From the NCBI RefSeq assembly GCF_009914755.1, contig NC_060932.1: 64,000 nucleotides of DNA; one strand, written 5' to 3'. A program made the position numbers and the translations under genes. Position 1 is the stretch's first letter. Each line of letters starts with the position of its first letter. The stretch is from the human T2T-CHM13v2.0 reference genome, Homo sapiens. The notes under the pieces were generated by a model that saw nothing but the letters and a program-made list of their open reading frames with translations, ran no database searches and was not told the origin of the DNA. Below, piece by piece: positions 405-60,498 of the stretch.

Positions 405-540
405 GGGAGACAGTTTATGCTGTGGTTAAGAGTGCAAACTCTGAAGCCAGGCTGCCTGTTTTTGAGTCCCACTTCTGTCTTTACTATTGTGAGGCTTTGA
501 GAAAGTCATTTAAATTCAGTGGGTCTCAGTTTCCTCTGTT
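405..540 (+). mobile_element. MIR SINE fragment
   Basis: gtggttaagagtgcaaactctgaagccag...gtctcagtttcctc matches the MIR tRNA-derived head and core. Confidence 0.8.
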
Positions 541-2220
541 AGTTTATGTAACTAACAAAGTTAGTTACACAAACTAATATTGCTTTATTTTATATTATTG
601 TTATAGCTGAAGTCAGCTTCCAAGGTCATCTAGTCTTATAATTAACCATCAGTAGAGAGACAAGGAAACTAGTTTCAAGTATTTTCATGAACTTAGATTC
701 AGTCAGTCAATAGGTCCATTAGAACTGAAATATATCACCTCATTCTTAGATAAGATCTTTTTCATTTACTCAGCATAGGTTGATAATTAATGATTTTCAA
801 CCTATCTGAGTACTAGGTTCTCAGTAGGTTTGGGGTCTTCTTCAATTGCCCATACTTTCATGAGTATTTAAATCCTTCTGTATAAAGTATCCTTCTTCCC
901 AAAATGGTTTTGGTTGTTTCACACTCACCCCTCAGGATTCAGCTTTCTCTATGACTACTTATTTGGAAAGCTTCCTTGAGCAAACTTTCAGTCCCCACCT
1001 GTTCCAAAACAAGTTTATATCTTCTCTCAATCCCTTTCTCAGAACCTTGTGTTTAGCCACATTATCCCAGTGGATGTATTTGCTGAATTTCTTATAGGTC
1101 TCCCCAAGTTTATTATTAGCTCCTTGGGGCAGAAATTCCATCTTCCATAGGAGATTATCAGTCATTTAAAAATATATACTATTTGCTGGGCTAGGAGTTG
1201 AAGCTAGAATGACCCCTGACCACAGTTTCTCTAACCACACCTTTATTTCTGGGTCCTTACTTCTCTACTTGCTCACTAAAAGTGATAAGGTTACTGCACA
1301 CACAGGCAGAAAGAAATTTTGTCTTCATTTTTTTAATATTTGAGCCAGATCCTTGACTAGTGTATAGCAGAGTAAACTCCAGGTCTGCATGGTTAGTCCA
1401 AGATGTATTTAATGATTTTTTTGCTCATGATCATAGTGTTTTCACATTATTAACTTCCCAAAGTATTTCCCATGAAAGATTATGAGATATCTTGTGAAAC
1501 AAAAATAGTATCTGACAAGACTAGTGATAGGTTCATTTTTAAAAAAGGGTCCTATCTTTAAATATGATCAGAAAATGCTCTATGACATTGTCCCTTCTTA
1601 GACATCACAACGTACTGTTGCATAGGAGAAGATCAGATCCATGAAGATCTGTAGTACAACAAACAAGCAAAATTGTTGACATTGCATGTTTAATCTAGAT
1701 TTGACTTAAATTCTTTGACCATGGATTCTCAGATGCTGGGTCTCATGGCACTTGCGGTCTTTAGTTCACATCATTTCTTCACCAAAGCCACAACTGAAAC
1801 AGGCTGGCAACTGCCAGAATATACATAGAAGACAATCACCTAATCATCTGATGAATAGGTCCTTGTTTTATTGAGGGTTTTTTTTTTAGGTTCTTTTTTC
1901 TCAATTTGTCCTCTAACTTCCAATGACATGGGACATCATTTTAATTGATCCTCAAAATTCTTAAAGAATACTTTTTACACAAGTGGCACCAAGGAAATAT
2001 ATGATGCTGGAAAGATACTGGAAAGTGCAGTAATTAACCAAGAATATTACAACTCATTTTCTTGAGACTTGGCATACCTTCCTGCAAGCTTTTTATTTAT
2101 TTATTTACTTTTTAATGAAGTAATTAATTGCAATTCATTTGGGTGTTATGGAGGTTGTAGTCAATTTTTATTACTAATTTTTCTTTGTGTAGTAGTTATT
2201 AATGTGTTTTTCATTTATAG

Positions 2221-2373
2221 CTAGAACAACTGGGAAGACACTCTAGTCCATGTAACCCTTAGACATTTGAATTTGATAGTGAAGTATCAGTGCCCTCTTT
2301 GCTCAGTGTGTTTGCAGTGCAGTGCAGTTTAAATTTAATTTATTTATAATTTTCCCTTTATATTTTTATTAAA
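2221..2373 (+). other. Candidate alternative terminal exon (phase-0 reading LEQLGRHSSPCNP*)
   Basis: Acceptor tgtgtttttcatttatag ends at 2220, TAG at 2260-2262, ATTAAA at 2368-2373; non-repetitive context; no expression evidence. Confidence 0.25.
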
Positions 2374-4339
2374 CCCTCTACTTATTTTCCCATTCTTCTC
2401 TGACCAACAGATGGGCTTACTTCCCCTTTATGTGTTTTCATTGTTAATATCTGCAATTCAATAATCAGAAAAATCAGAAATTAGCTTGTATCACATTTGC
2501 AAGGGAAAATGTTTTCTTCAAGCTGCATTTTGTTTCTGAGCTAAAAGAAAACACAATGCTATTACATAATGAGTGCCTGTTTTACAGGGGAAAAAATAAA
2601 CAGGGTTCCAAGTTTAAAATGATGATGGTGCTTTTCTGCTATCATCGGAGCCTAGGTCAGCACAAGGCCACATGTCATCCCTCTCTTGGACTGCAGTCTT
2701 TATGCACATCATTCACACACAGATTAATTCACTCAACCAGAGAGATGGTCCAATTGCACTTTCTTACTTAATTTCTTGTTGACTTGTCAGATACTTATGT
2801 TTTATGAAGACATGACAGAATTCCAAGATTAAAATTTGGTTATGATAATTTATAAAATAATAAGTATTGTGATGTGATATTGATGGCTTCATGTAAAAAA
2901 GAATCCTTTTTATTCAGTTCCCAATCCAAGAATCCTCCCAATCTAGAGGGGTACCTCTCTTGTCCGGAGCACCATTGATTAAATCTCACCAAGCCAAATC
3001 TTTATCTTTTTGTAATAAGTGTGTCCTCTGTAGGTATTCTCCAATGCTCCATAAGCTATTCTTGGCTTGGTACTTTTCTGATGAGAATGAACTCTTTCTT
3101 CATGGTCTAGCTGTGAAGCTGATTGAATGTCTTAGGCCAGAAGATTTGACCAGGGGCTGCCGTGTTTTCTCATCTTTGCTCTTTTATCAACATAGGATTT
3201 CCTGCAGATTCAAGATGAGGAGTCAGATGAGTCAAAGTTATCTACATCTACAGGTCATGACAGGAAAGTTGAAAGCCCTGTTAAATTTTTACAGGAGTTA
3301 CTGATGATAATTACCAAGAAATCCTGGGCCTGAGATATAAATTCTTAGCTTTAAATTTTCTTCATTTCTTGGTTCTGCTGCTCCTCATCACCATTTATGC
3401 AAAAAAAATCTGCTTGGGTATTCAAAACACAGCTTTCTTGTTTCTATTTGTGCATTCAAACACTCCTTATTTTCTCCACTACCAGGGATAACCTCTTTTC
3501 TTATGATTCACATTTTTCTTGTTCTTCAATTGTCATCCAGAATTTTCTTGCTCCTTAAAAGCTTCCTAGTTTAACTGATTCAATATCTATAATTTTCTTT
3601 CTCAGGTAGATTTTTATACATGAACTTACTCATGCTACAATTTCACTGGGAGCTTTATATTTTTATGTCACCAACAAATCTCTTCCAGCTTCATCAGATT
3701 GTAAAACCTCAAGGGTCCTGATCATATCCTCCATTTTCGTCTAGGGTGTTTAGTGGAGTAGGGTCCCTCGTTTTTTTCTCTTTCTTTGCTGCACTAAAAG
3801 GATGAAATGTAAATATTTTCTCCCCAGGGAGGCTTTGGGAAGAGAGTGAGTTTTCAGTGGCTAATGATTTGTGCTTTGAGTTTAATGGTCCATCAAAGTC
3901 TATTAAGCAATAGCAAGAGAAAAAGAAGATTCCAAAGGAAAGTAGAAGGGGATAAACCACAATGAGACTTCAGGGGGGATCTAGAAAAATGGACCAGGGA
4001 ATGATCTGGTTTACAGAAGGGGAGTTTGGGAGATAAGGCGCAGGTGGGAGGGCAGAGATCTAACTGCGGAAAAGCTCAGACACAGCCGAAAAACTGGACC
4101 TAGTAATGTTAGAAGACACCAGAGTTGAATCACAGCTCGCAGCCACCCCTCACTCAAGCCTTCACTGGAGCTGGCATCTCTCCTCTCCTGTGTTTAGTGA
4201 CAAAAAATGTGGCCCTTCTGCTGCCTGGCAAAGAGTTTGCCTTGACTACATTCAGCACCTCATCAGCTGTCCTTCCATCTGTGCCTGCCACCTAGGTGAG
4301 CCACTGGCCTCCTCCTGTATGAGTCAGGATTCTGGCATA

Positions 4340-4585
4340 GTGCATCTGTGTGATGTCTCTGAAATGTTTATCTTCAGCACAGATTTCTTTTCTGGTTTCA
4401 ACTTCCCATTTAGAAGTTGAAACGGAAGAGAAGTTGAAACCGGGAGTTGCATATCTACTCAGGTGTCATGGACATCTTAAACTCAACATTGTCTATTCCA
4501 AAGCCAACCTTTCATCTTCCTCATCATAGTAAATGGAATCTTTGTCTTTCTAGTTTTTTAAGCCATAAACTCAGAAGTCATTTCA
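4340..4585 (+). mobile_element. L2 LINE fragment
   Basis: catatctactcaggtgtcatggacatcttaaactcaacat and cttcctcatcatagtaaatgg are typical L2 motifs. Confidence 0.6.
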
Positions 4586-5050
4586 GACATACTCAGGTTA
4601 TGTAATATACAGAGAATTTAACAAAGAACTATTTACAAAGGTGAGGGTGGCATTCAAAGAAACCACCAAGTAATATTGCAGTACTTCTGAAATAATGACA
4701 GTGAGAATCCGGAGCCCAATCCTAGGCCTGAAGGGGCAGCAGGAGGGAGTGGTTGATGGACCCTGATACAGGCAGGGAAGGCTGTGTGAAGATTTGGGAG
4801 GATCTGTGTTTCTTTGTCAATGAAGGTGGCCAGCCCTCAGCACAGCGTGGGGGTGCAGGAGAAAACAATACCCCACAGTCACTCTCCTCCCCACCTCAGA
4901 GCTCCTGCACTGTTCCTGAAGCCATAGAGGAAGACAAAGCAAAGCAAAACCCACCACTGATGTAAACCTAGACAGTGAGCCTCCCAGGACCCAGGGCAGG
5001 GTGGAAAATGGTGAAGAGTGAACCTGATGGACGAACAGAAGAAAGAAGGC
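4585..5050 (-). mobile_element. Old ERVL-class LTR (LTR33-like)
   Basis: gaatttaacaaagaactatttacaaaggtg...aaaccacc...gcagtac...cctaggcctgaagggg resembles recalled ERVL LTR consensus; subfamily uncertain. Confidence 0.5.
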
Positions 5051-5894
5051 TCAATAATGGACATTTTCTTGACTCTCGACTAATTATTTAATATCAATAA
5101 CCTCCACATAATGTTCCAGCATGTTTTTTAAACTAGAGAAATAAAAAAATTGGTTGTGGGAGGAGAGGAAGGTGAAGAGAAGAGGGCATGGTAGAGTGTT
5201 AGACGAAGCAAAACTTAGAGAAGGGACCAAGTCAGGGATTAGGCTAGGACAGTGGTTGATGATTTCCCTATCACCTTTGTCCAAAGGCTGCACGCGGGGG
5301 GCCCCATAAGTGTTTGTTGGCTGCCTCCAACTCTCAACCACTGGAAGCTAACATTCTTTCTGGTTTGTTCGGTTTAGCAAGTGCGTGAAGTACCTCTTGA
5401 AGATTGACTCTGCGGTGCTCACTCACTCACACACTGACATGTAATCAAATGTTTTACTGCAGTTCCATTATCTTTTCATCAACACATTTTGAAAAAAAAT
5501 GACTGACACCACCAAGTTGATTCAGTTGTGGACAAACAATCTTCAAAGCAGAGTTATCTCTTCCTGATCTAGCTCAATAGTTTACAATATTAACTTCATA
5601 AATTAAATTACTTCTGCTTCAGACTGACTTTTCTTGAAAGCACATATTCTTCTCTTTCTTTTTACATACTCAATCATGAATTAAAGTAGGTAACACAGAT
5701 TGTTTGCTACAGGTCAATTTCTCTATAAAACTACAAAAGGGAAGATCAGAAAGAAGAGGGTGAAGACTGTAGATTGCTAAAATAAAAGCTTTGTAAAGAA
5801 AATCTTAAACTACTTATTCCTTTGGCTCCCAGGAAATCATATTCTCTTCTCTTTCTAAGTTATTGTGGTGGAGGGGTTGTTTATTTTCATTTTA

Positions 5895-7112
5895 ACTTTT
5901 TTATTTTTAAATTTGATGCATACATAATAGTTGTACATAATATATGGGGTACATGTGATATTTTGATACAAGCATAAAGTATGTAATGATCAAATCAGGA
6001 TCATTACAAACATTTATCATTGTCATCTCAAACATTTATCATTTTTTCATGTTGGTAACATTCTAAATTCATTCCTCTAGCTATTTTGAAATATATAATA
6101 AATTATTAACTATAGTCACCCCATTGTGCTATAAAATGCCACATCCTATCTTACTATCTAACTGTATTTTTGTACTCATTAACCAACCCATTTTTATCTC
6201 CCCTTCCCCAGTACCCTTCCAAGCCTCTGGTAACCATGATTCTACTCTCTATCTCCATGAGATCAATTTTTTTAGCCCGCATATATGAGTGAGAACATGT
6301 GATATTTGTCTTTCTGTGTCCAGCTTATTTCACATATCATAATTTCCTCCAGTTTCATCCATGTTGTTGCAAGTGACAAGATTTTATTATTTCTTATGAC
6401 TGAATAATATTTTATTGTGTCTATGTGCCATATTTGCTTTGTCTATTCATCTGTTGATGGACACAGTTTGGTTCCATACCTTGACTACTGACTGCTGTGA
6501 ATAGCTCTACAATAAACATAGGAGTGCCGATATCTCTTTGATACACTGATTGCCTAGTTTTTTGGATATGTATCCAGTAGTGGGATTGCTGGATCATATG
6601 GTAGTTCTATTTTTAGTTTTTTTTAGGAACCTTCATACTATTTTCCTTAGTAGCTGTACTAACTTACATTCCCATCAACAGTATACAAGAGTTCCCTTTT
6701 TTCCACATTCTCCCCAGAATTTGTTACTTTTTGCCTTTTTGATAAAAGAAATTTTAACTAGAATGAGATAATATCTCATTGTGGTTTTGATTTGCATTTC
6801 TGTGATGATTAGTGATATAAGCATTTTTTCATATACCTGTTGGCCATTGTATGATTTCTTTTGAGACATGTTTATTCAAATCCTTTGACTATTTTTAAAT
6901 CAGATTACTTGGCTTTTCACTATTAAGTTGTTTGAGCTCCTTATATATTCTGGTTACTAATCTCTTGTCAGATGGGTCATTTGCAAATATTTTCTCCCAT
7001 TCTGTAGGCTGTCCCTTCACCTTGTTGATTATTTTCTTTTCTGTGCAGAAGCTTTTTAGCTTGATGTGGTCCCATTTGTCCATTTTTCCTTGGGTTGCTT
7101 GTGCTTTTGAGG
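5895..7112 (-). mobile_element. L1 (L1MA-type) 3' end with ORF2 C-terminal remnant
   Basis: Minus-strand ORF 6895-7083 [15 protein letters not shown]...[10 protein letters not shown] is the L1 ORF2p C-terminus; L1MA-like 3'UTR at about 5900-6500. Confidence 0.95.
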
Positions 7113-7139
7113 TTATTGTAGGATTTTATACATTGTTTA

Positions 7140-13213: not shown

Positions 13214-13291
13214 AGAAATATATTTGAAATGTATTCATCGGTATCACCTTGGTGCTAAAGAATTTACAGTTAGCTCCCCTAGTGAAATTCA
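13214..13291 (+). repeat. Inverted repeat pair A, donor copy (78 bp)
   Basis: Reverse complement of 13743-13821; 62 bp identical, then one substitution and one 1-bp indel. Confidence 0.97.
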
Positions 13292-13742
13292 GGATGTTTT
13301 TATTGTTGGTAAATTGAAAAAGAATTTTTCACCTGATCAATGAGGAAAGATGATAGGGAAAGGTAGAAAGGAAGGGCAAGGACACAAAAAAACTTTGCCA
13401 GGCAGACAACCTGGTACCAGTAATTTTTGGTGTAAAAAACAACGCAATTGGCAGTGCATTCTCCAAGTTCCGGTGTCTTGGTCCCGTTCTTATTCCACTC
13501 AAGTTGCATTAAGAACAAACATTGCCAGGGTATTTGACTTTTCTCTATTTCCATGGGATTCTAAATTTTTCTAAATCTGAACCCCCCGCCCCCGACAAAT
13601 CCTACCATAGATAGTAAGTTTTACCTCTATATAGAAAAACATCATTTCCACTATTATAATTATATTACTCTACATAATTTCTTCAAGACTTTGCTTAATT
13701 ATTTCTCAGAACTCTCTATGTTGCTAATTATGTAGAGTAATA

Positions 13743-14243
<501 letters not shown>

Positions 14244-15122: not shown

Positions 15123-15179
15123 TGTGTATGTTATGTATTTTACAAGATATCTATCTATCTTATGTCTATCTACCTATCT

Positions 15180-15456
15180 AATATACTACAGAATATATAC
15201 ATATGTATAAATATATAAAATATATACTTATATAAGTATATAGGTATATAAATAAGTATATAAATAAATATACTTATATAAACTAATATATATTACTTTA
15301 TATAATATATATTTATATATTTATAACATATATATTTTATATACATATATGTATTTATATACATATATACGTATTTATATATACGTATTTATATACACAT
15401 ATACGTATTTATATATACTTATATAAGTATTTATATGTACTTATATAAGTATATAT
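15180..15456. repeat. TA-rich low-complexity tract with internal palindromes
   Basis: Degenerate (TA)n; perfect 22-bp palindrome tatatacttatataagtatata at 15221-15242. Confidence 0.95.
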
Positions 15457-18400
15457 CTCCTATTGGTCCTGTTTCTCTGAGAAACCCTAAGATATCCTTC
15501 CTTATATTCTTTGGCAACTACTAATCAATTTTTTTGTTTCTATTAATTTGCCTATTCTGGACATTTTATATAAATGGAACCATACAATATGTAATCTTCT
15601 GTGCTGGCTTCTTTGAGGCTCAGTTATATTGTAGCATACATCAGTACTTCATTGCTTTTTATAGCTGAATAGTAGACCACTGTATGGATAGATCATTTTG
15701 TTTATTCATTCCTCAGTTAAAGGACATTTGGGCTCTTTCCACTGTTTGGCTATTATAAATAGTGCTGCATGAACATTCAAGTACAAGTTTTTGTTTGGAC
15801 AACTGCTTTCATTTCTCTTGGGTATATATGTAGAAATAGAATTGCTGGGTCATAAGGTAATTCTGTGTCCCAACATTATGAGGAATCACTAACCTGTTTT
15901 TCATAGTGGCTGTACCATTTTACATTGCCACCAGCAATGCATGAGGTTTCCAATTTCTTTACATCCCCATCAACACTTGCTATTTCTCAGATTTTTGAGA
16001 AATATAGCCATATTAGTGGATATGAAGTTCTATCTCATTGTGGTTTGTTTCCCTAATAATTAATGGTTTTAAACATCTTACCATGTATATAATTAGCCAT
16101 TTTTATATTTTTTGAAATTATTTATTCAAATTATTTGCCCATTTTAAAATAGCGTTGTTTGTATTTTTGTAATTAAGGATTCTTTATGTATTCTGTACAC
16201 TAGACCCTTATCAAATATATGACAAGCAAATATTTTCTCCCATTTCACTTTCTTCATAGTATTGTTTGATGCACAGACTTCTTAATTTTAATGAAGCACA
16301 ATTTATCTCTCTGTCTCTTTTTTTTTTTTTTTTTTTTTTGGCTGCTTTTAGCATCATACATAAAACACTGTTTCCTAATCTAGGGTCATGAGAATTTTCA
16401 TTTATACTTTCTTCTGAGAGTTTTACATTTTTAGCTTTTAATTCAAAATCTTTGATACATTTTGAGTTAACTTTGGTATATAGTGTAAGGTAAGTGTCCA
16501 AATTCATTCTTTTAAATATGGACATACAGTTGTTCTCGTACTATTGGTAGGAAAGACTATTCTTTCCAACATTTTCATTTGATAATCTTGGCACCCTTGT
16601 CAAAAATCAATTGACCATAGATATATGGATTTATTCATGGATTGTCAATTCCATTCCACTGATCTCTTTATTTATCCTCAGACCAGTACCACACTGTTTT
16701 AATTATTGTAGCTTTATTTTAAGTTTTGAAATCAGGCACTATGAGTCTTTCCACGTTGTTTTTCTTTTTCAAAAATGTTGACTATTTGGGAAAACTTGCA
16801 ATTCAGTATAAATTACAGAATTAACTTGTCCATTTTTTGCAAAATGGCATTTGGAATTTTGATAGGCATTGGACTGAATTCATAGATCAATTTGCAGTGT
16901 ATTGCTATCTAAATAATATTAAGTATATCAATAATGAACACAGGATGTCTTTCCATTTATTTAGGTTTCCTTAATATCTTTCAAAAATATTTTTTAGTTT
17001 TCAGTTTATGTGTCTTGCATTTCCTTATTTTAATTCATTTGTAAGTGATTTTTATGCTGTTATAAAGAGAACTGTTTTCTTAACTTTGTTTTCAAATAAA
17101 TCATTGACACTACATAGAAATAGAACTTACTTTTGTGTGTGGATGTTGTATCAGGCAACTTTGCCTAATGTACTTATCAGTCTAATAGTTTTTTTGCAGG
17201 GTTTTTTTTTTTTTAGTTTTATACATATTGTCATGGCACCTGTGAATAAAGATAGTTCTATTTCTTCCTATCCAATCTGGCTGACACTTATATTTTTTCT
17301 TGTCTAATTGCCCTTGCTGGAACTTCTGTATAATATTGAATACATATGTTGAGAGTAGATATCTGTCTTATTCTTGATCTTAGGGGGATAGCTTTCAGTA
17401 TTTCACAGTTAAGAAGGATATTAGCTTTATATTTTTTAACAAATGCCCTGTCTCAAGCCTGAGGAAGTTTCCTTCTACTCTGAGTTTTCTGAGTCTTTTT
17501 ATAACGAAAGGACATTAGATCTTGTCATTTTCTCTATCAACTGAGATCATCATGTTAGTTTTTCCTTTTTCTGCCAATATGGAATATTATATTGATTGGT
17601 TTTCTTATGTTTAACTTAGGATAAATTCCTTGGGTAAATCCCATTTGGTCATGGGGTATAACCTTTGTCGCATGCTGCCAGACTCAGTTTACTAGTATTT
17701 TTAGAATAATTTTTAATACATTTACAAGTGATCTTTGTGACCTTTTTGTCTGGCTTTGACATTAGGGTAATGCTGTCCTAATAGAATGAGTTCAGAAATT
17801 TTTACCTCTTCTTTATTTTTTGTTAAAGTTTGAGAAGTATTTCTTTGAATTCTTTAAATGTTTGGTATAATTCACCAGTGAAGCCACTGAGTCTTGAGTC
17901 TTTTGATGTTGTTGATGGTGGTTTTTTTATTATTGACTCAATAAATTTACTTTTTATAGGTCCATTCAGATTTCCTACTTATTCTTGAGTCAGTGTTGGT
18001 ATTTTGTATGTTTCTGGAAATTTTTTCATTTCATTTAGGTTACCTAATTTGGTGGAATACACTGGTTCATGTATTGTTTTATAATCATTTCATTTCTGTA
18101 AGGTGGGTAGTAACATCCTCAATTTATTTCTAATTTTAGTAAATCAAGTTTCCCTGTTTTTCTTGATAAGTCTTATCAAATATTTGTCATTTTTTAACCT
18201 TTCAGAGAAACAACTTTTGGTTTTATTGAGTATCTTTATTGTTTTTCTATTCTCAATTTCATTTATCTCTGCTCTAATATTTATTATTTTTTCCATCAGC
18301 TTGCTTTGTGTTTTTTGCTCTTTTTCTTTTATTTTCTTAAGGTGGAACCTTAGGTTATTAACTTGAGAATCTTTATTTTCTTTTAATTTAGGCATTTACA

Positions 18401-19060: not shown

Positions 19061-19829
19061 AAAAAAGAACATTTTTTTAAAAGTCTTGCCATAGTACATA
19101 CGAAAGTTGTGATCAAACATTTTCCCAGAAGTTTAAAAACCTAATAAAGTAAATAGTTTATAACCGAAAAGCACAAAAGAGAGGTATAAATTCTCAGGGA
19201 AGAAATGGCAATCAGCAGAATATAAATTAGAGGACATCAGTAGAGGACAAGAAATAAGTAAAACAAAAATAAATTAATATAGACACCAATAGCCTTCATA
19301 AACAAAAACAACAGCCACTTTGGATATGTGGTGGATGAAAAGTCTACAGTACCAGTGGTGGCAATGTGTATGAAATAGGACAGATTGTAAAAAGAAATAT
19401 TTATGATATTCTTTAAAAATTGCTAAATATAAATCAAAGGGAAAAAACAAAAGTAGAAAATGTCAGGCCTCTGAGCCCAAGGTAAGCCATCATATCCCTT
19501 GTGACCTGCACATACACATCCAGATGGCCGGTTCCTGCCTTAACTGATGACATTTCACCACAAAAGAAGTGAAAATGGCCTGTTCCTGCCTTAACTGATG
19601 ACATTGTCTTGTGAAATTCCTTCTCCTGGCTCATCCTGGCTCAAAAGCTCCCCTACCGAGCACCTTGTGACCCCCACTCTGCCTGCCAGAGAACAACCCC
19701 CCTTTGACTGTAATTTTCCTTTATCTACCCAAGTCCTATAAAACGGCCCCACCCTTATCTCCCTTCACTGACTCTCTTTTCAGACTCAGCCGGCCTGCAC
19801 CCAGGTGATTAAAAGCTTTATTTCTCACA

Positions 19830-24809: not shown

Positions 24810-25746
24810 AAAATACTTATGGAATGTTGTGATTAGTACGACCTTGGTTTTATTCAGAACTCATGGCTAGTGCTTATTTTCATGGCTCAGAGGAATTACT
24901 TGGCAGAAAAAAATTTCATCCTTCCTCCCACCTATTTTCTGCAGAGATTTCACACATTGACTAAATTTAATATCATGCCACACTGAAATGCATGATGTTT
25001 GAAACTCCTCCATGATCTCTGTACAGAGTACTAAAGAACAAGAGGCCAGTATTTTTTTCTGAGCTGAAATTTAGTTTAGGTTTTGTGCTTTTATAGTCAG
25101 TTTTAGGACATCATATAATTACATTTTTATATGAATCACTTTATGTGAATCACCTTTGGGTGACATTTTGATGTCCTTTAGACAAAGTCCTAAAGTGTGG
25201 CTTCTACAGTCTGCTGTGCAACTGACGCAGGTATTTTTTATCATAAGTACCTTTCCTTCAAATATTTGGTCCTACATATTCATGTTCTATGCAACATTTA
25301 GTTCTTTTTAGTCATTGCATATAAAGAAAACAAAATAGCTCTAACACTGTGAAAGGCAAATGGCCCTGCTTATATGCCCTGTTTGAATACTTGAAATCCA
25401 ACCCAAAGACAGTTCTTCCTCCTGTCTGGACCACTTGGGCCCTTGATGGAAGCCCAGCAGAGCCTGTTTAGAGAGCATGGAGCCATCTTCTGCTGAATCA
25501 TGAGAGGAAACTATGGTAACCCAATGGAGTTCTTTACAACTGGTGTCGTGAGAGCACAGGCAGAAAACACATGGTGGGAACATAGATGCATCAAGTAAAA
25601 GCTCTCAGCAAAGACCTCAATGAGTTTAGAGAGTGATGGGACAGAACGTGCTATCCATTAGATGTGAAAACAGTAAAGTACACAAGAGAAAGAGAATGAA
25701 AAGGTGGGGTGAGGAGACAAATGCATAATACTAGGAAAATATAAGT

Positions 25747-25822
25747 AAACTGTTTCAGTTTGGATAATGGACAGTTATACTTATATCCAAACTGTTTCAG
25801 TTTGGATAATGGACAGTTATAC
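25747..25822. repeat. Perfect 34-bp direct duplication with 8-bp spacer
   Basis: aaactgtttcagtttggataatggacagttatac at 25747-25780 and 25789-25822. Confidence 0.97.
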
Positions 25823-31330: not shown

Positions 31331-34300
31331 CAATAAAATTATTTGCAGCAGAAGATTATTTAATTTATCTTTGAATACTTGCATTGAATTAAAACACAGA
31401 AAAATAATTAATTAATTAATTGATCCTCCTCCACATGGGTATGATACATTTGCAATCAAGTGGCTGATTCTACAGTCAATGTGAAGAACATCACATGGTG
31501 CCTTTCTTGTCCTGAAATATTACCTCACTGGTGCCTTGTGAAGAAAGATGATGGGTTCTGTGGATGTTGTTGAGGTAGATGACACAAGGAGAGAAAAAAA
31601 AATAAGCTAAATGTTAAAAAATTAATGTGAAATGTATGTAATTCCAAAAGAGGGTAATTTAACTAGAAAACAGTAAACCTGCAGAAAGGAAGCCTAAATA
31701 ATTACCATTCACTTCCAGACAGTTCCTTGAATTGGATTCACATTGAGCTAAGGCTATCTGAATTAGAGGCAGCTGTATAATCCAAATGTTGTGCAGCATA
31801 CAGAATCAGATTGAGTGCTTGAGTGTCTGCACCCTAGGAAATTGATTTGACGACTATGTCAATTACTTCTGGCACCAAGCTTTCTGTGGGTTGCATTACA
31901 ACTGCTCTTTTGGTCAGCTGTGACTGCTTCCCCATCCACACCTATTGTTTTAGATTTATTTACTGCACCGGCAATCATAAATTATAGACTTTTTTCTATA
32001 CCATCTGGAAACTCTGGTGTCATTGTTTGGGTCACTTTTGATTACTCGCTCTTATTCTCAGCTACTGCCAAGGCTGATATATCTTGAATTATGAAAGACT
32101 TCCGCCACAAGCTGACCTATTTGTGAGCAACCTTTCAGCATCTACATATATTTATTTTATCCAACACATAGCTGGATAAAATAAAAAGTGTTTTCTCTGA
32201 CCCTTCAGGGAATTATTTCTTTGCCTGTGATACTGAATTTTTAAAGCTCACAATTTGCCTAACCATTTGCTTGTTAACCTACTGTTCGCTTCTATCATTC
32301 CCACAAGGTCTGATTTAACAAATTTATCATCCTTTTTTTATGGTGCTGAGAATGTAATTTTTCCAATATTTTCACCCAGTCTCAATTCTTATACCGAATA
32401 TTTCATTATGAATCTAAAATTAGAGTGAAAGGTTTTTTTTCCTCTTTCTTGTTTTCCTTTCTTCAAATCATCCTTAAACAATGAAGCAAAGCTTTTTATT
32501 ACTCTTTATTCTGGTGTTCAATATTCTAGCAACTGGGGCTAATTGCTATACTGTAAAACTTTCCTGACTCCAGAAAACATCTTAGCAGTGTTCTTTTTTC
32601 AACCAAATGACACTGATGCCTACCTGTATGGACAGTGTCAGCAGATTACTTTCATTTTACACAGATGGTTCACTGGCAGTCCAGATCAAATCTGAAATTG
32701 TGCTATCAAGCAGTTTTTATCCAGAGAAGCAATTTGAATATTGGAATTTTGTTGAATTTCCTAGGCCACAGCTGCTTGCATCTGACATCTGCTTCAATTT
32801 TTTGAGCAGCCAGTGACTTTTTTTCTGGCAACCTCAAGGATGAATTTTGTCAGGTTGTGTTCAAATCTATGTAATCCTCATCAAGTATCCCTCTTTAAGT
32901 AGTGTAATACTCCACATCACACTGTGTCCTAGAATCCTGGCTCTTCTCTACTCCTCTATTTATTAACATCAAATTTCACCTTAATTTTTATTAGGAGAAT
33001 CTCCATTTTCTACAACTTTTCCCCCTACAAGAAACTTCACTATCATCGGTTGAAGTCATGATCAAATTGAAGGGAGGAAAATAAAGTAGTGTTGTTAGAA
33101 TTTTCTTTAAAAAAATAAATCTCCCATGAGTCTTCAGTAGATATAAGTATTGCACTTTTACCATTCTTCAAGTATCCTGTCAGAGAGGCTGTATAGGTAT
33201 AAGGGATAGATTGTTTTCTTCCAAGGCAAAGTCCCAATGAATGTGGCCTAATTAACTTTGCAGCTTGATATATTATCCAAACTATCATTTCACATCTTTG
33301 ACAGTAGTGTCTACCAGCATAATGTCATGTCAATTCATATCAGATCACTTTGTTATGTTAGATATGCAATGCCCCAACAAGACATGATATTATCAAGGCA
33401 ACATGGTAGATATTTGAAAAAATTGTATCCTGTTTGCTGCTTCACCATCAGCCTTTCACAATGCAGAATGACACAACCAATGTGTCAAGCAGTAAATCTG
33501 AGGTTTGAAGTAGTGGGATGCTTTAGCAATTGCTTGTTTTTCAATGATTTTTTTAATCTACCTATAAAGTCCAAAGATACATAAAATGTTAGTTGTTAAC
33601 ATATTGTCATATTTCCAGACCATCTAAGTAACAAGCCTTTCAAGAAAGCAAAGAATAATATTACAAGAGCCCCTGTGATTTGCTATCTAAAAGAAGTATA
33701 AAATGCACACCATTTTCTCTTTGTTGTTAAAAGGGTGAATATTAGTCTAGTTGTGCTTTTGTTTTTAAAGAAAAATATAATAAACGATGCTGTTGGCAAG
33801 GTGTGATATTACTTAAGACATGTGCTTGCTATGTTCTCATCTGCCTTTTTCTTCCTGCCTATTACACAGCCTATTTACACAGAAGGGTGATGAAAACTTT
33901 AACTGACTGATGTTTTTTCTCGTCAAAAACTTCCAGAAAAAGAAGATTCCTTGATCTTTTTCTATATGCACTTGCAGCTCTTTTCACTGGGCTTTTTGGA
34001 GCAAGATAATCAAGGCATCTGCATTTAAGAATTTCATGTATAATAGGTCTTTAAAATATATAAAGCTAAAAAGGGAAAATGTAATACAAGGTTAGTATTA
34101 AGTGGCTTTCAATAGTAAGATTATATTTTAGATTTTCACAATCAGAAAAATGTGGCAAGCCAAGGAGATGAGCTTGTAGTTGGAGACTTCTAAATATTAA
34201 AATGGACTGTTCAAAACAGACGATATGCAGTAATTTCTACTGTTTATAAGCAATGTTGATTGCTGTCAAAGAGAAACCAATACCAAGTAAAAGAGAAAAT

Positions 34301-38985: not shown

Positions 38986-39616
38986 AAAATGTTTCCTTCA
39001 GATAGATAAACCATCTTATTCTTCCAATAGCCCCCTGCTTAAACAAAACACTTTTAGATTTTGGTATTTGTTATGAAGAGGACTCATGATAACTTATCTC
39101 CCATAAGCACCTCATTACACCTTGGTGGATTTATGATCCACACAGTAATCACTGATGTTGTATTAGTATTGAGAATTATTCACATACACACAGTGTTTTC
39201 AATGGAAAATGATAAGATTCACAATAATACATTTCTGCTGTGAAGCAGTTTTGTGATTGATTGGCAATGATACATAGAGAAGATTCACAAACTGTCCTTC
39301 ATTAGAACTGCCTCAAAATACATAATGAATCAGAGCTTTTAGCATTCATCAACACATATATGCATGTCTGGAGAAATGATGAAGTGATTGTGCCAATGAA
39401 TTAATTGAAGGGAAACTTGGAGAAAAAACTTGTTTTAATAGAACACATAATGGAGAGCACACAACCATTGCTCAATATAATTACAGTGCTCCAGTTGTCA
39501 GAGTGGACATTGTCTTTGCTATTAAGATTTGTCTTCTGGACTAGAGTGTAAGAATTCATACCCAAGTCCTAGAGAATGAAATTCTGCAAATGAAAATACT
39601 AAAAGGAATCACACAC

Positions 39617-41920
39617 TTTATTAGTCCCTTTTCATGCTGCCGATAAAGACATTCTCAAGACTGGGCAACTTACAAAAGAAAGAGGTTTATTTGACTTACA
39701 ATTCCACATGGCTGGGGAGGCTTCACAATCATGGTAGAAGGTGAAAAGCATGTCTCACATTGTGGCAGACAAGGGAAGAGACCTTGCACAGGGAAACACC
39801 CTTTCTTAAAACCATCAGATCTTGTGAGACTTACTCACAATCATGAGAACAGCATGGGAAAGACATACCCCATGATTCAATTATCTACCACCAGGTCCCT
39901 CATACAACATGTGGGAATTCAACATGAGATTTGGGTGGGGACACAACCAAACCATATTATTCTGCCCCTGGCTCCTCCCAAATCCCATATCCTCACATTT
40001 CAAAATCAATCATGCCTTTCCAACAGTCCCCCAAAGTCTTAACTCATTTAAGCATTAACTCAAAAGTTCACAGTCCAAAGTCTCATCCAAGGCAAGACAA
40101 GTCCCTTCCGCCTATGAGCCTGTAAAATCAAAACCAAGTTAGTTACTTCCTAAATACAGTGGGGGTACAGGGATTGGGTAAATACACCCCTTCCAAATGG
40201 GAGAAATTGGCCAAAACAAACGGGCTATGGGCCCCGTGCAAGTCCAAAATCCAGTGGGGCAGTCAAATCTTAGAGCTCCAAAATGATCTCCTTTGACTCC
40301 ATGTCTCATATCCAGGTCACACTGATGCATAAGGTGAGCTTCCATGGCCTTGGGTAGCTCCATCCCTGTGGCTTTGCCAGGTACAGCCCACCTCCCAGCT
40401 GCTTTCACAGGTGGGCATGAGTGTCTATGGCTTTTCCAGTCACAAAATTTAAACTGTCAGTGGATCTACCATTCTGGGGTCTGGAGGACTGTGGCCCTCT
40501 TCTCACAGCTCCACTAGGCAGTGCCCCAGTAGGGATTCTGTGTGGGGGCTGTGATCCAAAATTTCCCTTTTGCACTGCCCTAGTAGAGGTTCTCCATGAG
40601 GGCCCCACCCCTGCAGCAAACTTCTGCCAGGGCATCCAGGCATTTACATATATCTTCTGACATCTAGCTGGAGGTGCCCAAACCCCAATTCTGGACTTCT
40701 GTGCACTCATAGGCTCAATACCACATGGAAGCTGCCAAGGATTGGGGCTTGCACCCTCCAAAGCCATGGCCCAAGCTCTACGTTGGCCCCTTTCAGCCAC
40801 AGCTAGAGCAGCTGGGATGCAGGGCAAGTCCCTGGGCTGCACACAGCGTGGGGACCCTGGAGCAGACCCACGAAACAATTATTATTATTATTTTTTCTAA
40901 ACCTCCAGGCCTATGGTGGAAGGGGTTGCTGCAAAGGTCTCTGACATGCCCTGGAGACATTTTTCCCATTGTCCTGGTGATTAACATTTAGCTCCTCATT
41001 ACTTATGCAAGTTTCTGCAGCAGGCTTGAACTTTTCCTCATAAAATGGGATTTTCTTTTCTATTGCATTGTCAGGCTGCACATTTTCCAAACTTTTATAT
41101 TCTATTTCCCTTATAAAACTGACTGCCTTTAACATCACCCAAATTACTTCTTGAATGCTTTCCTACTTAGAAATTTCTTCTGTCAGATACCCTAAATAAC
41201 CTCTCTCAAGTTCAAAGTTCCACAAATCTCTAGGGCAGGGGCAAAATGCTGCCAGTCTCTTTGCTAAAACATAACAAGAGTCACCTTTGCTCCAGCTCCC
41301 ATCAAGTTCCTCATTTCCATCTGAAAGTACCTCAGCCTGGATTTCATTGTCCATATCATTATCAGCATTTTGGTCAAAGTCATTCAAGTCTCTAGGAAGT
41401 TTCAAATGTTCCCACATTATCCTGTCTTCTTCTGAGCCCTCCAGACTGTTCCAACCTTTGCCTGTTACCCAGTTGCACAGCTGCTTCCAGGTATATTTTC
41501 AGATTTTCAGAAAATCTTTTCAGAAAAGATTCTCATGTATCTTTTCAGCAGTGCCCTATTCTACTGGTACCAGTTTACTGTAGTAATCCATTTGCACGCT
41601 ACTAATAAAGACATACTCGAGACTGGGCAATTTACAAAAGAAGGGTTTATTGGACTTATGGTTCTACATGGCTGGGGAGGCCTCACAATCATGGCAGAAG
41701 TTGAAAGGCACATCTCACATGGCAGCAGACAAGAGAAGAGAGATTGTGCAGGGAAACTCCCCTTTTTAAAACCATCAAATCTCGTGAGACTGACTAACAA
41801 TCATGAGAACAACATGGGAAAAACCTGCCCCCATGATTCAATTACCTCCCCCCAGGTCCCTCCCACAACACGCAGGAATTCAAGATGAAATTTGGGTGAG
41901 GACACAGCCAAACCATATCA
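39617..41920 (-). mobile_element. Complete THE1 MaLR element (THE1A-like): 3' LTR 39617-39959, internal 39960-41578, 5' LTR 41579-41920
   Basis: Two homologous LTRs of about 342 bp, polypurine tract complement ttctgcccctgg at 39960, 5-bp TSD cacac (39612-39616, 41921-41925). Confidence 0.96.
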
Positions 41921-49798: not shown

Positions 49799-50007
49799 GG
49801 ATACAATTATAGAATATGAAAATAATCAGTTTAAAATAAGAAATAGAAGATGGCATTAAAATATGACAAAGAAAAACTCGATTGACAAAATTGACAAGAC
49901 ATTTGAAAATGAAACCTAAGAGACACTCAGAAAAAAATCCCAAATATTGTAGTAAAAACTAATTGGATATACTAATCTAGAATTTAGAAAGAGATGAAAA
50001 GAGAAAA
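49799..50007 (+). repeat. Inverted repeat pair B, donor copy (209 bp)
   Basis: Reverse complement of 52201-52412; one substitution and two small indels. Confidence 0.98.
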
Positions 50008-50508
50008 TTGGGCAGGAAGCAGAGGTGAGAAAATTACTTAAGTGGCATCAAAAATGACAAGGAAGGAGGAACTATGTGAGAGAGCTCAGGTGATGCAGAA
50101 GCTGGAGGAATACGTCTGGGATAGGCCTCATGGAAATTCCAGAAGAAGATACAGCATAAAGAAGGAGAGCAGAGATACATGATGAGAATTTTCAGCACTG
50201 ATGTAGATATTAGCCCTAATATATAGAAAGCTCAGTGGATTCTAAGCTGAATAAATAAAAAGGGATTCAAACCTAGCCACATCAGAGTGACACTTAAGAA
50301 TGACAAGAATAAAAAATTTAAATAGATACAGAAGAAAAATGTAGATTTGCTTAAAGGTAATGATAACTAGACTAAGAGGAGACTAATCAATATTTAATAT
50401 GAATAAAATAGCAGTGAATAGAATTCTATACCCAGTAAAACTATCTTTTGAGAATAAGGGCATAATAAAGGAACTTTCAGACATGTAATAATTGAGATAG
50501 TTGACTAC

Positions 50509-50964
50509 TGTATTATTTTCCTGGGGCTGCTGTAATGAAGTACCACAGACCAGGTGGCTTAAAACAACAAAAACTCATTGTCTCAGGGTTTTGGAGGATA
50601 GAATTCAAAATTCAAGGTGTTCACAGGGCTATGCTCTATCTGAAACCTGGAGGGGAGAACCTAGGGAGAACCTTGCCTCTTCCTTGCTCCTGATGGTTTG
50701 CCAGCAGTCTTTCCCATTTCTTGGCTTGTAGCTGCATAATGTGCATCTGTATCTCCATCAACACATGGTATCTCCCCGTGTGTGTGTGTGTGTGTCTGTG
50801 TGTGTGTGTGTGTGTCGTGTCTCCTCTTCTTATGAGGAACCAGTCATATTGGATTAAGGACTTATCTGACTACATTATGGCCTTATATTAACTAATTACA
50901 TCTGAGATAATACTGGTTACATCTTTCACATATCTTTTTGTGAGATACAATTCCAACCATAACA
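50509..50964 (-). mobile_element. MLT1B/C solo LTR containing a (TG)n tract at about 50778-50815
   Basis: TG...CA termini, 5-bp TSD actac (50504-50508, 50965-50969). Confidence 0.92.
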
Positions 50965-51430
50965 ACTACTAAACTTCTTCTAAATGATATAAGAAAATAA
51001 GGATAGAATATCTAAGATGCAGGAAGAATTGAGGGGTAAGAAAGAAGCACTGAGTATATACAAAAGAACAACAATATGTAACCGAAATCATAGACATTAT
51101 TGGCATATGAGTCAGGAGAGAAATAATCAGATTTTAAGTACTAGTATTGAAAATCCTAGTATCATTTGAAAGAAGAGAAACTATATTAATAACATTAGAT
51201 ATTGTTGAGGTAAATGTGCATGTAGAAAGTTTGAAGATGGCCATATAAAAATACAAACCAAATATGTAGCTTCCAATTTAGTAGAGAGGAAGGAAATAGC
51301 ATTAGAAGAAAAATAAATGAACAAACCAACAAACTCAATCCAAATAATTAAGAAAGAAGAGAATAAATATAAAGAAAATGAGAAAAAGTAATTAAAAAGA
51401 AATGCTAATTAGAAGACAGAAATGTGTCCA

Positions 51431-51737
51431 GGCCAGGCACAGTGGCTCGCACTTGTAATCCCAGCACTTTGAGAATCCCGTGGCAGGTGGATTTCTTGAG
51501 CCCAGGAGGTCAAGACCAGCCTGGGCAATATAGTGAAACCCTGTCTCTACGAAGAAAAAAAAAAAAAGGCTTGTCTGTCCTATAGTCCCAGCTACTCAGG
51601 AGGCTGAGGTGAAAGGATCACCTGAGTCCAGAAGGTTGAGGCTACAGTGAGCCAGGATAATGCCACTGCACTCTAACCTGGGTGATGGAGTGAGAAGCTA
51701 TCCGCCCCCCCAAAAAAAGAAAGAAAAAGAAAAAAAA
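51431..51737 (+). mobile_element. AluJ
   Basis: cttgagcccaggag, gaggctacagtgagc (J-type); TSD agaaatgtgtcca at 51418-51430 and 51738-51750. Confidence 0.93.
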
Positions 51738-52147
51738 AGAAATGTGTCCAAATGTGTCAATAATGATGTGTGATGGTTAAAACTGAGTGCCAAATTGATT
51801 GGATTGCAGGATGCAAAGTATTGATCCTGGGTGTGTCTGTGAGGGTGTTGCCAAAGGAGATTAACATTTGAATCAGTGGGCTGGGAAAGGCTGACCCACC
51901 CTTAATCTGGGTGGGCACCATCTGATCAGCTGCCAGCATGGATAGAATATAAAGCAGGCAGAAAAATGTGAAAAGACCAGACTGGCCTAGCCTCCCAGCC
52001 TATATCTCTCTCATGCTGGATGCTTCCTCCCCTTAACATCGGACTGCAAGTTCTTCAGTTTGGGGACTTAGACTGCCTCTCCATGCTCCTCAGTTTCCAG
52101 ATGGCCTATTCTGGGACCTTGTATTATGTAAGTTAATACTTAATAAA

Positions 52148-52150
<3 letters not shown>

Positions 52151-52194
<44 letters not shown>
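52151..52194. repeat. (AT)22 microsatellite, resuming as (AT)7 at 52413-52426
   Basis: Direct reading. Confidence 0.97.
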
Positions 52195-52197
<3 letters not shown>

Positions 52198-52200
52198 CTC

Positions 52201-52412
52201 TTTTCTCTTTTCATCTCTTTCTAAATTCCAGATTAGTATATCCAATTAGTTTTTACTACAATATTTGGGATTTTTTTCTGAGTGTCTCTTAGGTTTCATT
52301 TTCAAATGTCTTGTCAATTTTGTCAATCGAGTTTTTCTTTGTCATATTTTAATGCCATCTTTATTTCTTAAATATTTTAAACTGATTATTTTCATATTCT
52401 ATAATTGTATCC
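52201..52412 (-). repeat. Inverted repeat pair B, inserted copy
   Basis: ttttctcttttcatctctttctaaatt...tattctataattgtatcc is the reverse complement of 49799-50007. Confidence 0.98.
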
Positions 52413-52549
52413 ATATATATATATATGAGTTCTGTCCCTCTAGAGAACCCTAACCAATACTGATTTTCATACCAGGACTGGCTCTAGAGGAACAGAATAT
52501 TAAGAATGGTGTTCTTTCATTGGCTTGGGGGTTTCTGGAGTTGGCTGCT

Positions 52550-54260: not shown

Positions 54261-54329
54261 TCCCATTGAGGAAGGACCCCACTACACTACCGACCATTTA
54301 TGCTATTAATCTTTCTCCCACCCTTCCCC

Positions 54330-57300: not shown

Positions 57301-57601
57301 GCAGAGGGAGGAACACTGCCACCAGGAGACACAACAACAATCCCTTTAAACTGGAAGTTAAGATTGCCACCTGGACACTTTTGGCTCCTTCTACCTTTAA
57401 ATCAGCAGGCTGAGAAGGGAGTTACAATGTTGGCTGGGGTGACTGACTCGGACTATCAAGATGAAATCCATCTACTACTCCACAACGGAGGTAAGAAAAA
57501 GCATGCATGGAATATGGAAGATCCATTAGGGTATCTCTTAGTCTCTTAGTATTACCATGCCCTATTATTAAGGTCAATGGCAAACTACAACAGCCCAATC
57601 C
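54330..57601 (+). pseudogene. pol: HERV-L pro-pol-dUTPase, disrupted
   Basis: Protease LLDTGS at 54401-54418; [28 protein letters not shown]; integrase CPIC and WQIDYIGPL; dUTPase GVTDSDYQDEI; many stops. Confidence 0.95.
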
Positions 57602-59286
57602 TGAAGGGTCTGGTTCATTGGTAGTCCTGTCTGAGTGACCCACTTAATTATTATATCTATAGACACTTCTACATAATCTGTGAATATAAACACATTAAAA
57701 CACAAATAACGGAATGATAAATTATTGCGTATCAGAATTTGAGACATAGCTGAAACAGTACTTAGAGAAAAAGTTGTAAACTTAAATATTTATATTGGAA
57801 ATGAAACACAACTGAAATTAAATGACAATAGTATTTATCTGAAGTAGATGGAGAGAGAACAGAATAAGCCTAAGGAAACTAGAGGGAAAGAAACATTAAT
57901 TAAATCATGGCAGAAGTTAATACAATGGAAAAGAAAGATATAATCAAGGGGATAAAGCTAAAAGTTTGTTGTTTGAAACAAAACCTCTATAAAGATTAAT
58001 CAAGAAAAAATGCAAAAGGCAACAATAAACAGCAAATAATATTAAGGATAAAAAGGGAGTATAGAAACAGATTGAAAAGAGATTAAAAAGAATAAGAGGA
58101 TATCTGAAATAACATATTCCCATTGATTTAGAAATTGGGATAAAATGAGAAATTTCCTAGAAAGATAAAAATAAATTAAACCTTCTCAGGAAGAAATTGA
58201 AATCCAAATGATACATTCAATCAGTAATTAGAAGTCTTTACACAAAGAAAATATCAATTCCAGATGGGTTTACATGTGACTTTTACCATATATTTAAAGA
58301 ACATAAATTAAACAATTAAAAGCCTCAATAAAATATTTTAAGTGCAAAGGCAAATAAATAAAACTGCCCAACTCTTTATTAAGACTAGTATAAAGTTCTC
58401 ACCCAAAGCTAAGAAGAACAAAACATAAGAAAGGAGTCTCATGAGCCAATTTCACTAGCAAACAATGATGTAAAATCCTAGTAATATTAACAATGTATGA
58501 AAGAATTAACAATGTATACATGACATGACACATCATGGCCAAGATATATTTATTCTAGGAATGCAAGATTGTTTCAATATCAGAAAATCTCTTTTAAAGA
58601 TTCATTTACTAATAAAATTTATTGCATTGCAGATTTAAAAAAGGAAAATCATATGATCTTCTCAATATAAGATCTACTATGTAGAAAAAATTTGATAAAT
58701 TTTACATAATTTATAATAAAAAGAGAACTCAGCATGTAATGGAAGTTCCTTATTGTAAAAAAAAGGGGTATCTATAAAAAATGAACAAAACAGAAAAGTG
58801 ATAGTATATATCAGACTCAACACTGAAATAATAGAAGGTTTTAGTTCCAATGAATACAAGGAGACATGCTCACTCTCCCCATTACTATTCCACATTGCTC
58901 TCAGCATTAATAATAACAAGAGTATAACAATAATCACAAATACAAATGGATATAAGATTCAAGGTTTGTACAGGAAGATACAAAACTTTAACATTTAACA
59001 TGCAAAATATTCTCCATAGAAAACCTTAAAGAATTCATAAGAGAAGTTAATACTTTATTTAGGAAATTAAATAATTTTTTGAAGATATTACCTAAATAAT
59101 TGGAGAAACATACAGTGTTCATATAGGGAGAGAATAAATAGCATAATGATTTCAGTTCTATTTATTTTATAGTCTCAGTACAATGACAAAGAATCAGAAC
59201 AAGATGTTTTCACAGAACTTGTCAAGCTGATTCTAAAATTTATGTGGGTGAGCAAACTGAAAATTAACAGTGAAGATACTTGTAAA

Positions 59287-59535
59287 TAATAATAATAATA
59301 ATGATATAGTAACAAATAAGTATGTGGTACTTACTGTCAGGAACCATTCTAAGTGTTATACAGTTATTAATTTATTCAATCAGAGAAAGCATACACAATA
59401 AGTTCTATTATTTTCTCATCCTGTCTTGCAGATACCAAACTGGAACCCAGAGAAGGTAGGTAACTTGCTGAAGTGACACTGTGACAGAGGGAAACCCTAA
59501 TACATAGCACTGGAGCACACCTCCACAACACATTT
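59287..59535 (-). mobile_element. MIR SINE inside the old L1
   Basis: (AAT)n tail, ccattctaagtg, cccagagaaggtaggtaacttgctgaagtgacac. Confidence 0.75.
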
Positions 59536-59890
59536 CTAGAATAAGAGGATATAGGGAGAACCATCTCTGCCAGAATTGAGACTTATTACAAAGTTATAGC
59601 AATTGCGACCTTGTGATGTTGGTACAGGATAGATCAAAAGATCAGCATGATAGAAAAGAGAACCCAGCAACAGACCAGTATTTCAAACAAAAGACTAAAC
59701 ATGGAAGTTTATGCCGTATGTCAATGGGGGAAACAATGGATGAGTCAACAAAATTGCAATTAGAAAATTGGTTACATAAATGGTATTTTTTAAAAAACTG
59801 AAATAATTTCCTCCCTCATACCAGTCACAAACTTAATTTCAGAAAGAATAAGGACTTCCACTGTAGAAGGCAAATCTTTGAAACATATGT

Positions 59891-60498
59891 ATAGGAGGAG
59901 ATAGGATAATTTATTTATGTCTTTTTCCTCATCTATATATAAAAAATGTTATATATAATATATAATGTTATAATTAAACACATATATAATGTTACATATT
60001 ATATATAATGCTATAATCAAACATATATGTTTAATTATATAAACATGTAACATTATAATTAAACATATAAATGTTTAATTATATAAATATATAATGCTAA
60101 TGTAACAATATAATATTAAATGTCATAATTAAACATACATATGTTTATAACATTAATTTTAAATATTCTGTCTAGAAAGGATATTAATAATTACTATATA
60201 TAATTATTATATATTACATATAAGTATTAATACAATAATTATGTTAATTTATTAATATTCTAATTTATGTCCTATAGAGAGAGAGAGAGAGAGGGGAGAG
60301 GAGGATCTAGGATAATTTATTTATATAATAAAATATATATTATATAAGTAATATATATTAGATATTATATATAATATATATTATATAAAATATATAATAT
60401 ATGAATATATATATATAATCCTACATCCCCTATATATGTAAGTATATGTTATGTATATATATGAGATATATACTTACGTATATATAGGAGATGTAGGA
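59891..60498. repeat. AT-rich expansion with duplicated and inverted flanking motifs and a short (GA)n
   Basis: taggataatttattta occurs twice; imperfect inverted repeat 60419-60447 versus 60468-60498. Confidence 0.9.

What the first reader, a model, noticed from the sequence alone, without database searches (positions are those of the whole stretch)
539..60498. Window-wide cluster of locally templated inverted insertions and fold-back scars
Seen: about nine sites where new sequence is a copy, usually inverted, of DNA 0-2.2 kb away (539-577, 4394-4441, 13214-13821, 25747-25822, 32151-32185, 41489-41548, 49799-52412, 57599-57642, 59891-60498). Several sit exactly where a transposon is broken or truncated. 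In both large cases the donor lies to the left of the inverted copy. Established: such junctions are the signature of polymerase-theta-mediated end joining and of MMBIR/fork template switching, and long (TA)n tracts form cruciforms that stall forks. Inference: this locus may be a long-lived germline template-switching hotspot whose events can be dated because they fall in transposons of known age. I cannot compute the genomic background, so enrichment is unproven.
Basis: partly seen in the sequence, partly recalled or inferred. Interest (0 to 1): 0.7.

Follow-up and report, generated by a model that had tools for sequence, protein, structure and literature searches.

The report
Backward-copied DNA scars, human chromosome 8
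This gene-poor stretch of human chromosome 8 carries about nine small scars where nearby DNA appears in reverse, likely left by ordinary copying or repair slips; they are about three times denser than in a small random sample, but a special hotspot is not shown.

Summary
The nine sites exist. At five of them (2, 6, 7, 8, and an added site at 5982) copies of the same repeat elsewhere show the window's sequence is the derived state. They match known kinds: short-range template switches, end-joining templated insertions and small inverted duplications. Against 200 kb of random AT-rich human DNA, short hairpins are 3.4 times denser (95% CI 1.3-9.0, uncorrected for the window having been picked for this trait). 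Only 21 of 48 detector settings give p<0.05, and a second detector gives none. Long inverted copies number 2 against 1 (p=0.15), and the background one is built like site 3. Two unselected flanks split: hairpins at background rate, but one more old inverted copy. A hotspot is neither shown nor excluded. The one-sided polarity fails at site 8, and transposon age gives only an upper bound. The best lead is elsewhere: the TA tract that received the 209-bp copy carries fold-back scars in dozens of sister LTRs genome-wide, and in 2 of 2 informative LTR pairs only one LTR has them. Site 7 is therefore likely a property of the tract, not of the locus.

The parts
539..577 (.). Site 1: fold-back hairpin, 18-bp arms, 1 mismatch, where a MIR-like element stops (family name recalled; best background alignment weak)
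4394..4446 (.). Site 2: 37-nt insert in an L2-like repeat (name recalled) made of two inverted copies of 4394-4405
5982..6043 (.). Added site: 10-bp fold-back plus 22-bp tandem duplication in an L1-like repeat, absent in 3 paralogues aligned
13214..13291 (+). Site 3 donor A (about 450 bp left of the junction)
13662..13679 (+). Site 3 donor B (46 bp left of its copy)
13726..13823 (-). Site 3 fill: inverted B, then inverted A, joined through a 5-nt match to an Alu-like piece that lacks its tail end (13824-13945)
15173..15462 (.).
25739..25822 (.). Site 4: 34-bp direct duplication with an 8-nt junction built from two short inverted copies
32151..32185 (.). Site 5: 13-bp perfect hairpin, 9-nt loop; no paralogue to polarise it
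41489..41548 (.). Site 6: 38-nt insert of short local direct and inverted pieces near the end of a THE1-like internal region (name recalled)
49799..50007 (+). Site 7 donor, single-copy sequence
52151..52194 (.). Site 7 acceptor: 22 AT units in the tail of an MLT2-type LTR (about 51765-52460; name recalled)
52195..52412 (-). Site 7 inverted copy of the donor, with a 7-nt stutter at its left junction
52413..52431 (-). Site 7 right junction: mirror of the tract and its left flank; this form occurs once in the genome against 60 canonical junctions
57599..57645 (-). Site 8: in-place micro-inversion plus a second short inverted piece at the point where an ERV-L-like internal region (name recalled) ends
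59893..60498 (.). Site 9: 600-bp TA-rich tract between three diverged copies of a short flank motif, with a 31-nt fold-back at 60419-60498

Best explanation
The sites are locally copied, mostly inverted pieces of DNA, likely left by separate, ordinary germline template-switch or end-joining events over tens of millions of years, and their density here is likely the upper tail of normal regional variation rather than a dedicated hotspot. Shown: the junction anatomy, the derived state at sites 2, 6, 7 and 8, and the recurrence of fold-backs in sister TA tracts. Inferred: a stalled or broken 3' end re-primes on a 1-6 nt match nearby, copies 10-200 nt in reverse, often two or three times in a row, then rejoins, sometimes across a deletion. 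Self-complementary TA tracts would favour this. Which polymerase did it cannot be read from sequence.
For: Serial inverted pieces with short junction matches at sites 3, 4, 7, 8. The random background holds the same architecture: L005 has a small fold-back and a 60-nt inverted copy from 400 bp left at a break in an L1-like repeat. Background also exceeds shuffles (9 inverted events in 200 kb, 2.86 per window, against 0.4). That detector finds no significant excess in the window at any of 7 thresholds for either type (p 0.16-0.93). With low-complexity masking only 2 of 24 settings reach p<0.05. The preset hairpin count in 20 kb of flank was 1, as background predicts (1.0), not 3.4. TA-tract fold-backs recur genome-wide. 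Published scale: 4,778 candidate human-chimp events (PMC5453318, section 6 read); 277 polymorphic inverted duplications, median 284 bp (PMC12350158, passages).
Against: The hairpin excess is not only in TA tracts: 11 against 10 in 200 kb, ratio 3.4, p=0.005, and only 2 of the 11 lie in the large TA tracts. 19 of 24 unmasked settings give p<0.05, 9 of 48 give p<0.01. The left flank holds a third long inverted copy (87% identity, about 500 bp from its partner), so window plus flanks is 3 in 84 kb against 1 in 200 kb (p=0.08). The background is only 20 stretches of 10 kb, GC 31-53%, not matched for repeats or replication timing.
Confidence: 0.65

Rival explanations
1. The region has a real, lasting two- to fourfold higher rate of template switching, for instance from slow replication through a large AT-rich transcription unit.
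For: Hairpin ratio 3.4 (CI 1.3-9.0); 3 long inverted copies in 84 kb, all apparently donor-left; about 1,040 bp of TA-rich tract against 186 expected; events of different ages (99.5%, 97% and 87% arm identity).
Against: None of 12 papers listed for LINC01414 points to fragility in title or abstract opening (listing only).
Confidence: 0.27
2. Most small sites are chance inverted matches or palindromes inherited with the transposons; only sites 3 and 7 are events.
For: Shuffles give 2.3 hairpins of 10 bp or more per window; PMC5453318 warns that matches under 12-13 bp are often chance; sites 1, 4, 5 and 9 were not polarised.
Against: Sites 2, 6, 8 and 5982 are absent from paralogues; site 4 has a 34-bp exact duplication; site 1 has 18-bp arms.
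Confidence: 0.06
3. The two large inverted copies are sequencing or assembly fold-back artefacts.
For: No reads could be examined; site 7 lies in a pure AT run.
Against: Both copies differ from their donors by substitutions and indels, which a chimeric read would not add consistently, and both have multi-step junctions.
Confidence: 0.02

Closest known systems
Short-range template switch mutations, four-point model (PMC5453318, abstract and section 6 read; PMC7954356 and bioRxiv 2021.11.26.470150, passages read)
   Same: Short reverse-complement copies that create perfect hairpins or in-place inversions; enrichment in AT-rich DNA; evidence in VNTRs noted.
   Different: Those studies polarise with ape or population alignments and filter out masked or low-complexity DNA; here most sites are older, lie in repeats, and several have two or three serial switches with a deletion.
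Polymerase-theta templated insertions (PMC5068794, passages read) and fold-back inverted duplications at breaks in yeast (PMC11724301, abstract read)
   Same: Inserts copied from the flank, reiterated priming, short junction matches, deletion plus fill (sites 2, 3, 4, 6).
   Different: In the worm data inserts are mostly under 25 bp and snap-back is a minor class; in yeast the fold-backs need Pol delta. The 79- and 209-bp copies exceed the usual size, and no enzyme can be assigned here.
Small inverted duplications in human long-read call sets (PMC12350158, passages read; supplement 2 index and a search seen)
   Same: Size (median 284 bp) and 1-15 bp microhomology match site 7.
   Different: Those are polymorphic; whether site 7 segregates is unknown. 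The readable table does not list this class, and the main supplement was too large to read.
Cruciform-forming AT repeats of fragile sites such as FRA16D Flex1 (PMC12972899, PMC11797062; search listing only)
   Same: Long self-complementary TA tracts next to rearrangement junctions (sites 7, 9).
   Different: No fragility data for this locus; the tract at site 7 is 22 units and part of an LTR family.

Membership tests
Short-range template switch mutation | A fragment that is the reverse complement of nearby ancestral sequence | tested here: met
   Site 8 against paralogues; sites 2 and 5982
Short-range template switch mutation | Ancestral state known, change explained in one step | tested here: inconclusive
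   Paralogues polarise sites 2, 6, 7, 8; no orthologues were available for 1, 4, 5, 9
Short-range template switch mutation | Copied fragment long enough to exclude chance (13-14 nt or more) | tested here: inconclusive
   Met at sites 1, 3, 7, 8, 9; borderline at 5 (13); not met at 2, 4, 6, where single inverted pieces are 7-12 nt
Polymerase-theta templated insertion | Insert templated from the flank with short priming matches, often reiterated | tested here: met
   Sites 2, 3, 4, 6
Polymerase-theta templated insertion | Dependence on POLQ | not testable with these tools
   Needs a reporter in POLQ-null cells
Small inverted duplication (replicative origin) | Unique local donor copied in reverse with microhomology, no long homology | tested here: met
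   Sites 3 and 7 have one donor each in the genome search; 1-5 nt junction matches
Small inverted duplication (replicative origin) | Support in reads or independent haplotypes | not testable with these tools
   No reads or pangenome held; one search found no row for six coordinate terms in a table that does not cover this class
Regional mutation hotspot | Density well above matched background | tested here: inconclusive
   Ratio about 3, 21 of 48 settings p<0.05; none; background 200 kb
Regional mutation hotspot | Excess continues in unselected neighbouring DNA | tested here: inconclusive
   20 kb of flank: 1 hairpin (background rate) and 1 long inverted copy
Regional mutation hotspot | Consistent strand polarity | tested here: not met
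   Site 8 donors lay right of the switch; the background event is also donor-left
Fragile site | Breakage under replication stress, late replication | not testable with these tools
   No such maps held

The most novel reading that the evidence does not exclude
The TA tract in the tail of MLT2-type LTRs is a built-in, roughly 1,300-copy reporter of germline fold-back copying: each copy starts from a known flank, paired LTRs of one insertion polarise events, and dozens of copies have independently mirrored their own flanks or, as here, pulled in DNA from kilobases away. Rates, switch points and strand bias of template switching at TA repeats, which published scans filtered out, could be measured directly from it.
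Probability: 0.55. Interest if true: 0.45.

Novelty: new member of a known kind. Interest (0 to 1): 0.22.

Why it matters
As a list of scars in one window it matters little: such events number in the thousands genome-wide. If the threefold excess held up genome-wide, the locus would be a test case for regional variation in template switching. The LTR tract lead matters more, because it offers many replicate, polarisable substrates for asking how TA repeats trigger inverted copying in the germline.

Tried and rejected
Uniform donor-left polarity: rejected by site 8. Dating by transposon age: gives only a ceiling. My first idea that TA tracts explain most of the hairpin excess: rejected, only 2 of 11 hairpins lie in the large tracts. 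Inheritance of the LTR fold-back from one source element: not supported; the label needs 10 changes on the tree, equal to shuffles, and 0 of 200 bootstrap trees make it one clade, but the tree has no well-supported branch and used 33 of 44 rows (11 lacked 130 bp of LTR body). LTR pairs: five sought; two informative, one with two different long tracts that I did not score, two partners not found in the stretches taken. Background direct repeats in L017 and L022 turned out to be target-site duplications, L009 a pair of related elements. Literature: ten searches; 'MLT2A' with 'microsatellite' listed 5 papers, none on this by title or abstract opening; the TA-repeat and fold-back search listed 6; two searches returned nothing. 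A 2015 paper on templated micro-insertions at two typical distances from deletion breakpoints is recalled only; it is not held. Subscription papers and Dfam notes were not searchable, so absence from print is not established.

Full report
Observation. Self-comparison of the window finds two long non-repeat inverted pairs: 13214-13291 with 13743-13821, and 49799-50007 with 52201-52412. Exact-match listing and folding confirm short inverted or duplicated pieces at sites 1, 2, 4, 5, 6 and 9. Site 8 has no partner in the present sequence. All repeat family names below are recalled; the calls show only that these stretches are multi-copy (1,124, 4,033 and 918 first-look candidates, 40 scored each).

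Direction. Paralogues give the ancestral state where a site lies in a repeat. At site 8, paralogues match the query forwards to about position 252, and five are listed matching the next 38 bases on the opposite strand at the adjoining place. Alignment to three copies shows about 35 nt inverted in place, a second 10-nt inverted piece from slightly further right, then unrelated DNA. Site 6 is a 38-nt insert missing from 3 of 3 copies aligned. Site 2 is a 37-nt insert against an in-window paralogue. At site 7 the 218 nt between the AT run and the LTR end are absent from three sister LTRs, the donor has one other match in the genome, and the right junction form occurs once against 60 canonical ones. 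Site 3's two arms are the only matches found; the fill is an 18-nt inverted copy from 46 nt left, then a 79-nt copy from 450 nt left, then a 5-nt match into an Alu-like piece missing its tail. Sites 1, 4, 5 and 9 were not polarised.

Age. Site 7's arms differ by 1 substitution in 207 (0.5%, CI 0.01-2.7%). At a recalled rate near 1e-9 per site per year that is about 2 million years, at most about 13 (inference). Its host LTR is at best 88% identical to the 32 sister copies in the tree. Host age is therefore a loose ceiling; arm identity dates better.

Enrichment. I drew 160 random 10-kb stretches from AT-rich arms with a fixed seed and analysed the first 20 (200 kb; GC 31-53%, none dropped). 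A first hairpin scan gave 7 against 4 (p=0.006; 5 against 4 without two TA-tract hits, p=0.04). A composition-weighted detector gave no significant excess at any of 7 thresholds, inverted or direct. A grid of 48 settings gave a median ratio of 3.1, p<0.05 in 21 (19 of 24 unmasked, 2 of 24 masked) and p<0.01 in 9. One representative setting gives 11 against 10, ratio 3.4, CI 1.3-9.0. Long inverted copies are 2 against 1 (p=0.15); the background one, L005 4374-4433, sits at a break in an L1-like repeat beside a small fold-back with its donor 400 bp to the left, as at site 3. For an unselected test I fixed a prediction and scanned the two adjoining 10-kb flanks: 1 hairpin, against 1.0 expected from background and 3.4 from the window, but also one more long inverted copy, 87% identical and about 500 bp from its partner, about 4.3 kb before the window. 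The two results roughly cancel. From 4,778 candidate events in the unmasked half of the human-chimp alignment, one or two strict events per 64 kb over tens of millions of years would be expected (my rough inference).

The TA tract. Two of three sister LTRs fetched for site 7 had fold-backs in the same tract. Genome-wide, 26 places carry an exact mirror of the right flank within 30 nt (reversed-pattern control 0), against 1,292 places with an intact 16-nt right flank; two of the 20 that I read are near-identical and probably one event. A left-flank pattern gave 21 matches at 20 places; by eye 14 mirror their own flank, 2 look like a point change and 4 are unclear. The point-change cases mean the window's right junction could also be a small deletion plus a substitution. 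Mirror extents vary from 7 to 10 nt. Among the first 20 of 60 copies picked only for a canonical right flank, 6 have a non-microsatellite inverted match of 11 nt or more, against 4 of 60 random pieces (Fisher p=0.013); the arms include TA runs, which favours the LTR set, and no non-LTR TA control was available. Fold-back copies do not cluster on a poorly resolved tree. In two element pairs one LTR has fold-backs and the other a plain tract; the first pair shares a private 1-nt insertion, the second is paired by position 4.6 kb apart. This indicates repeated events after integration.

Mechanism. A 3' end that has stalled or broken likely re-primes on a short nearby match, copies in reverse, may switch again, and rejoins. 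Sites 2, 4 and 6 resemble reiterated end-joining fills (PMC5068794); sites 1, 5 and 8 resemble short-range switches; sites 3 and 7 resemble small replicative inverted duplications. The enzyme is not shown. Which strand was being made is unknown, so donor-left does not fix fork direction, and site 8 is donor-right.

Verdict. Real scars of known kinds; a modest regional excess is possible (about one in four) but unproven; the family-wide TA-tract behaviour is the part worth following. Template switching in VNTRs and AT-rich DNA is already noted in print; my searches listed nothing on this LTR tract, within a library that lacks most subscription papers. The large supplement of PMC12350158 could not be read and may list site 7.

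Noticed in passing
L083:5075-5730 (about 4.3 kb before the window): An older inverted local copy of about 90 bp, 87% identical, about 500 bp from its partner and preceded by a 10-bp hairpin; same build as site 3.
   Followed up: yes
L005:3921-4433: Random background stretch with a fold-back and 60-nt inverted copy at a break in an L1-like repeat.
   Followed up: yes
L049, L066, L048: LTR tracts holding long inverted copies of their own upstream LTR sequence (about 55 nt in L049) or a direct re-copy of the downstream flank (L048).
   Followed up: partly
L065, L046: LTR tracts containing non-repeat inserts whose donors were not looked for.
   Followed up: no
L076: Three successive fold-backs of the right flank in one LTR whose partner L075 has a short plain tract.
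   Followed up: yes
   Followed up: partly
window 52355-52375: The site 7 copy differs from its donor by a 4-nt gain that forms a near-palindrome, possibly a small switch inside the copy.
   Followed up: no
window 19524-19605: 31-bp direct repeat inside the annotated enhancer, probably native to an LTR.
   Followed up: no
window 13946-14235: A full Alu-like element sits directly against the A-rich end of the truncated piece at site 3.
   Followed up: no
window 39615-41918: Two LTRs of one THE1-like element differ at 55 of 341 aligned bases, which bounds the age of site 6.
   Followed up: partly
L084:5146-5211: 14-bp perfect arms around a palindromic AT-rich spacer in the right flank.
   Followed up: no
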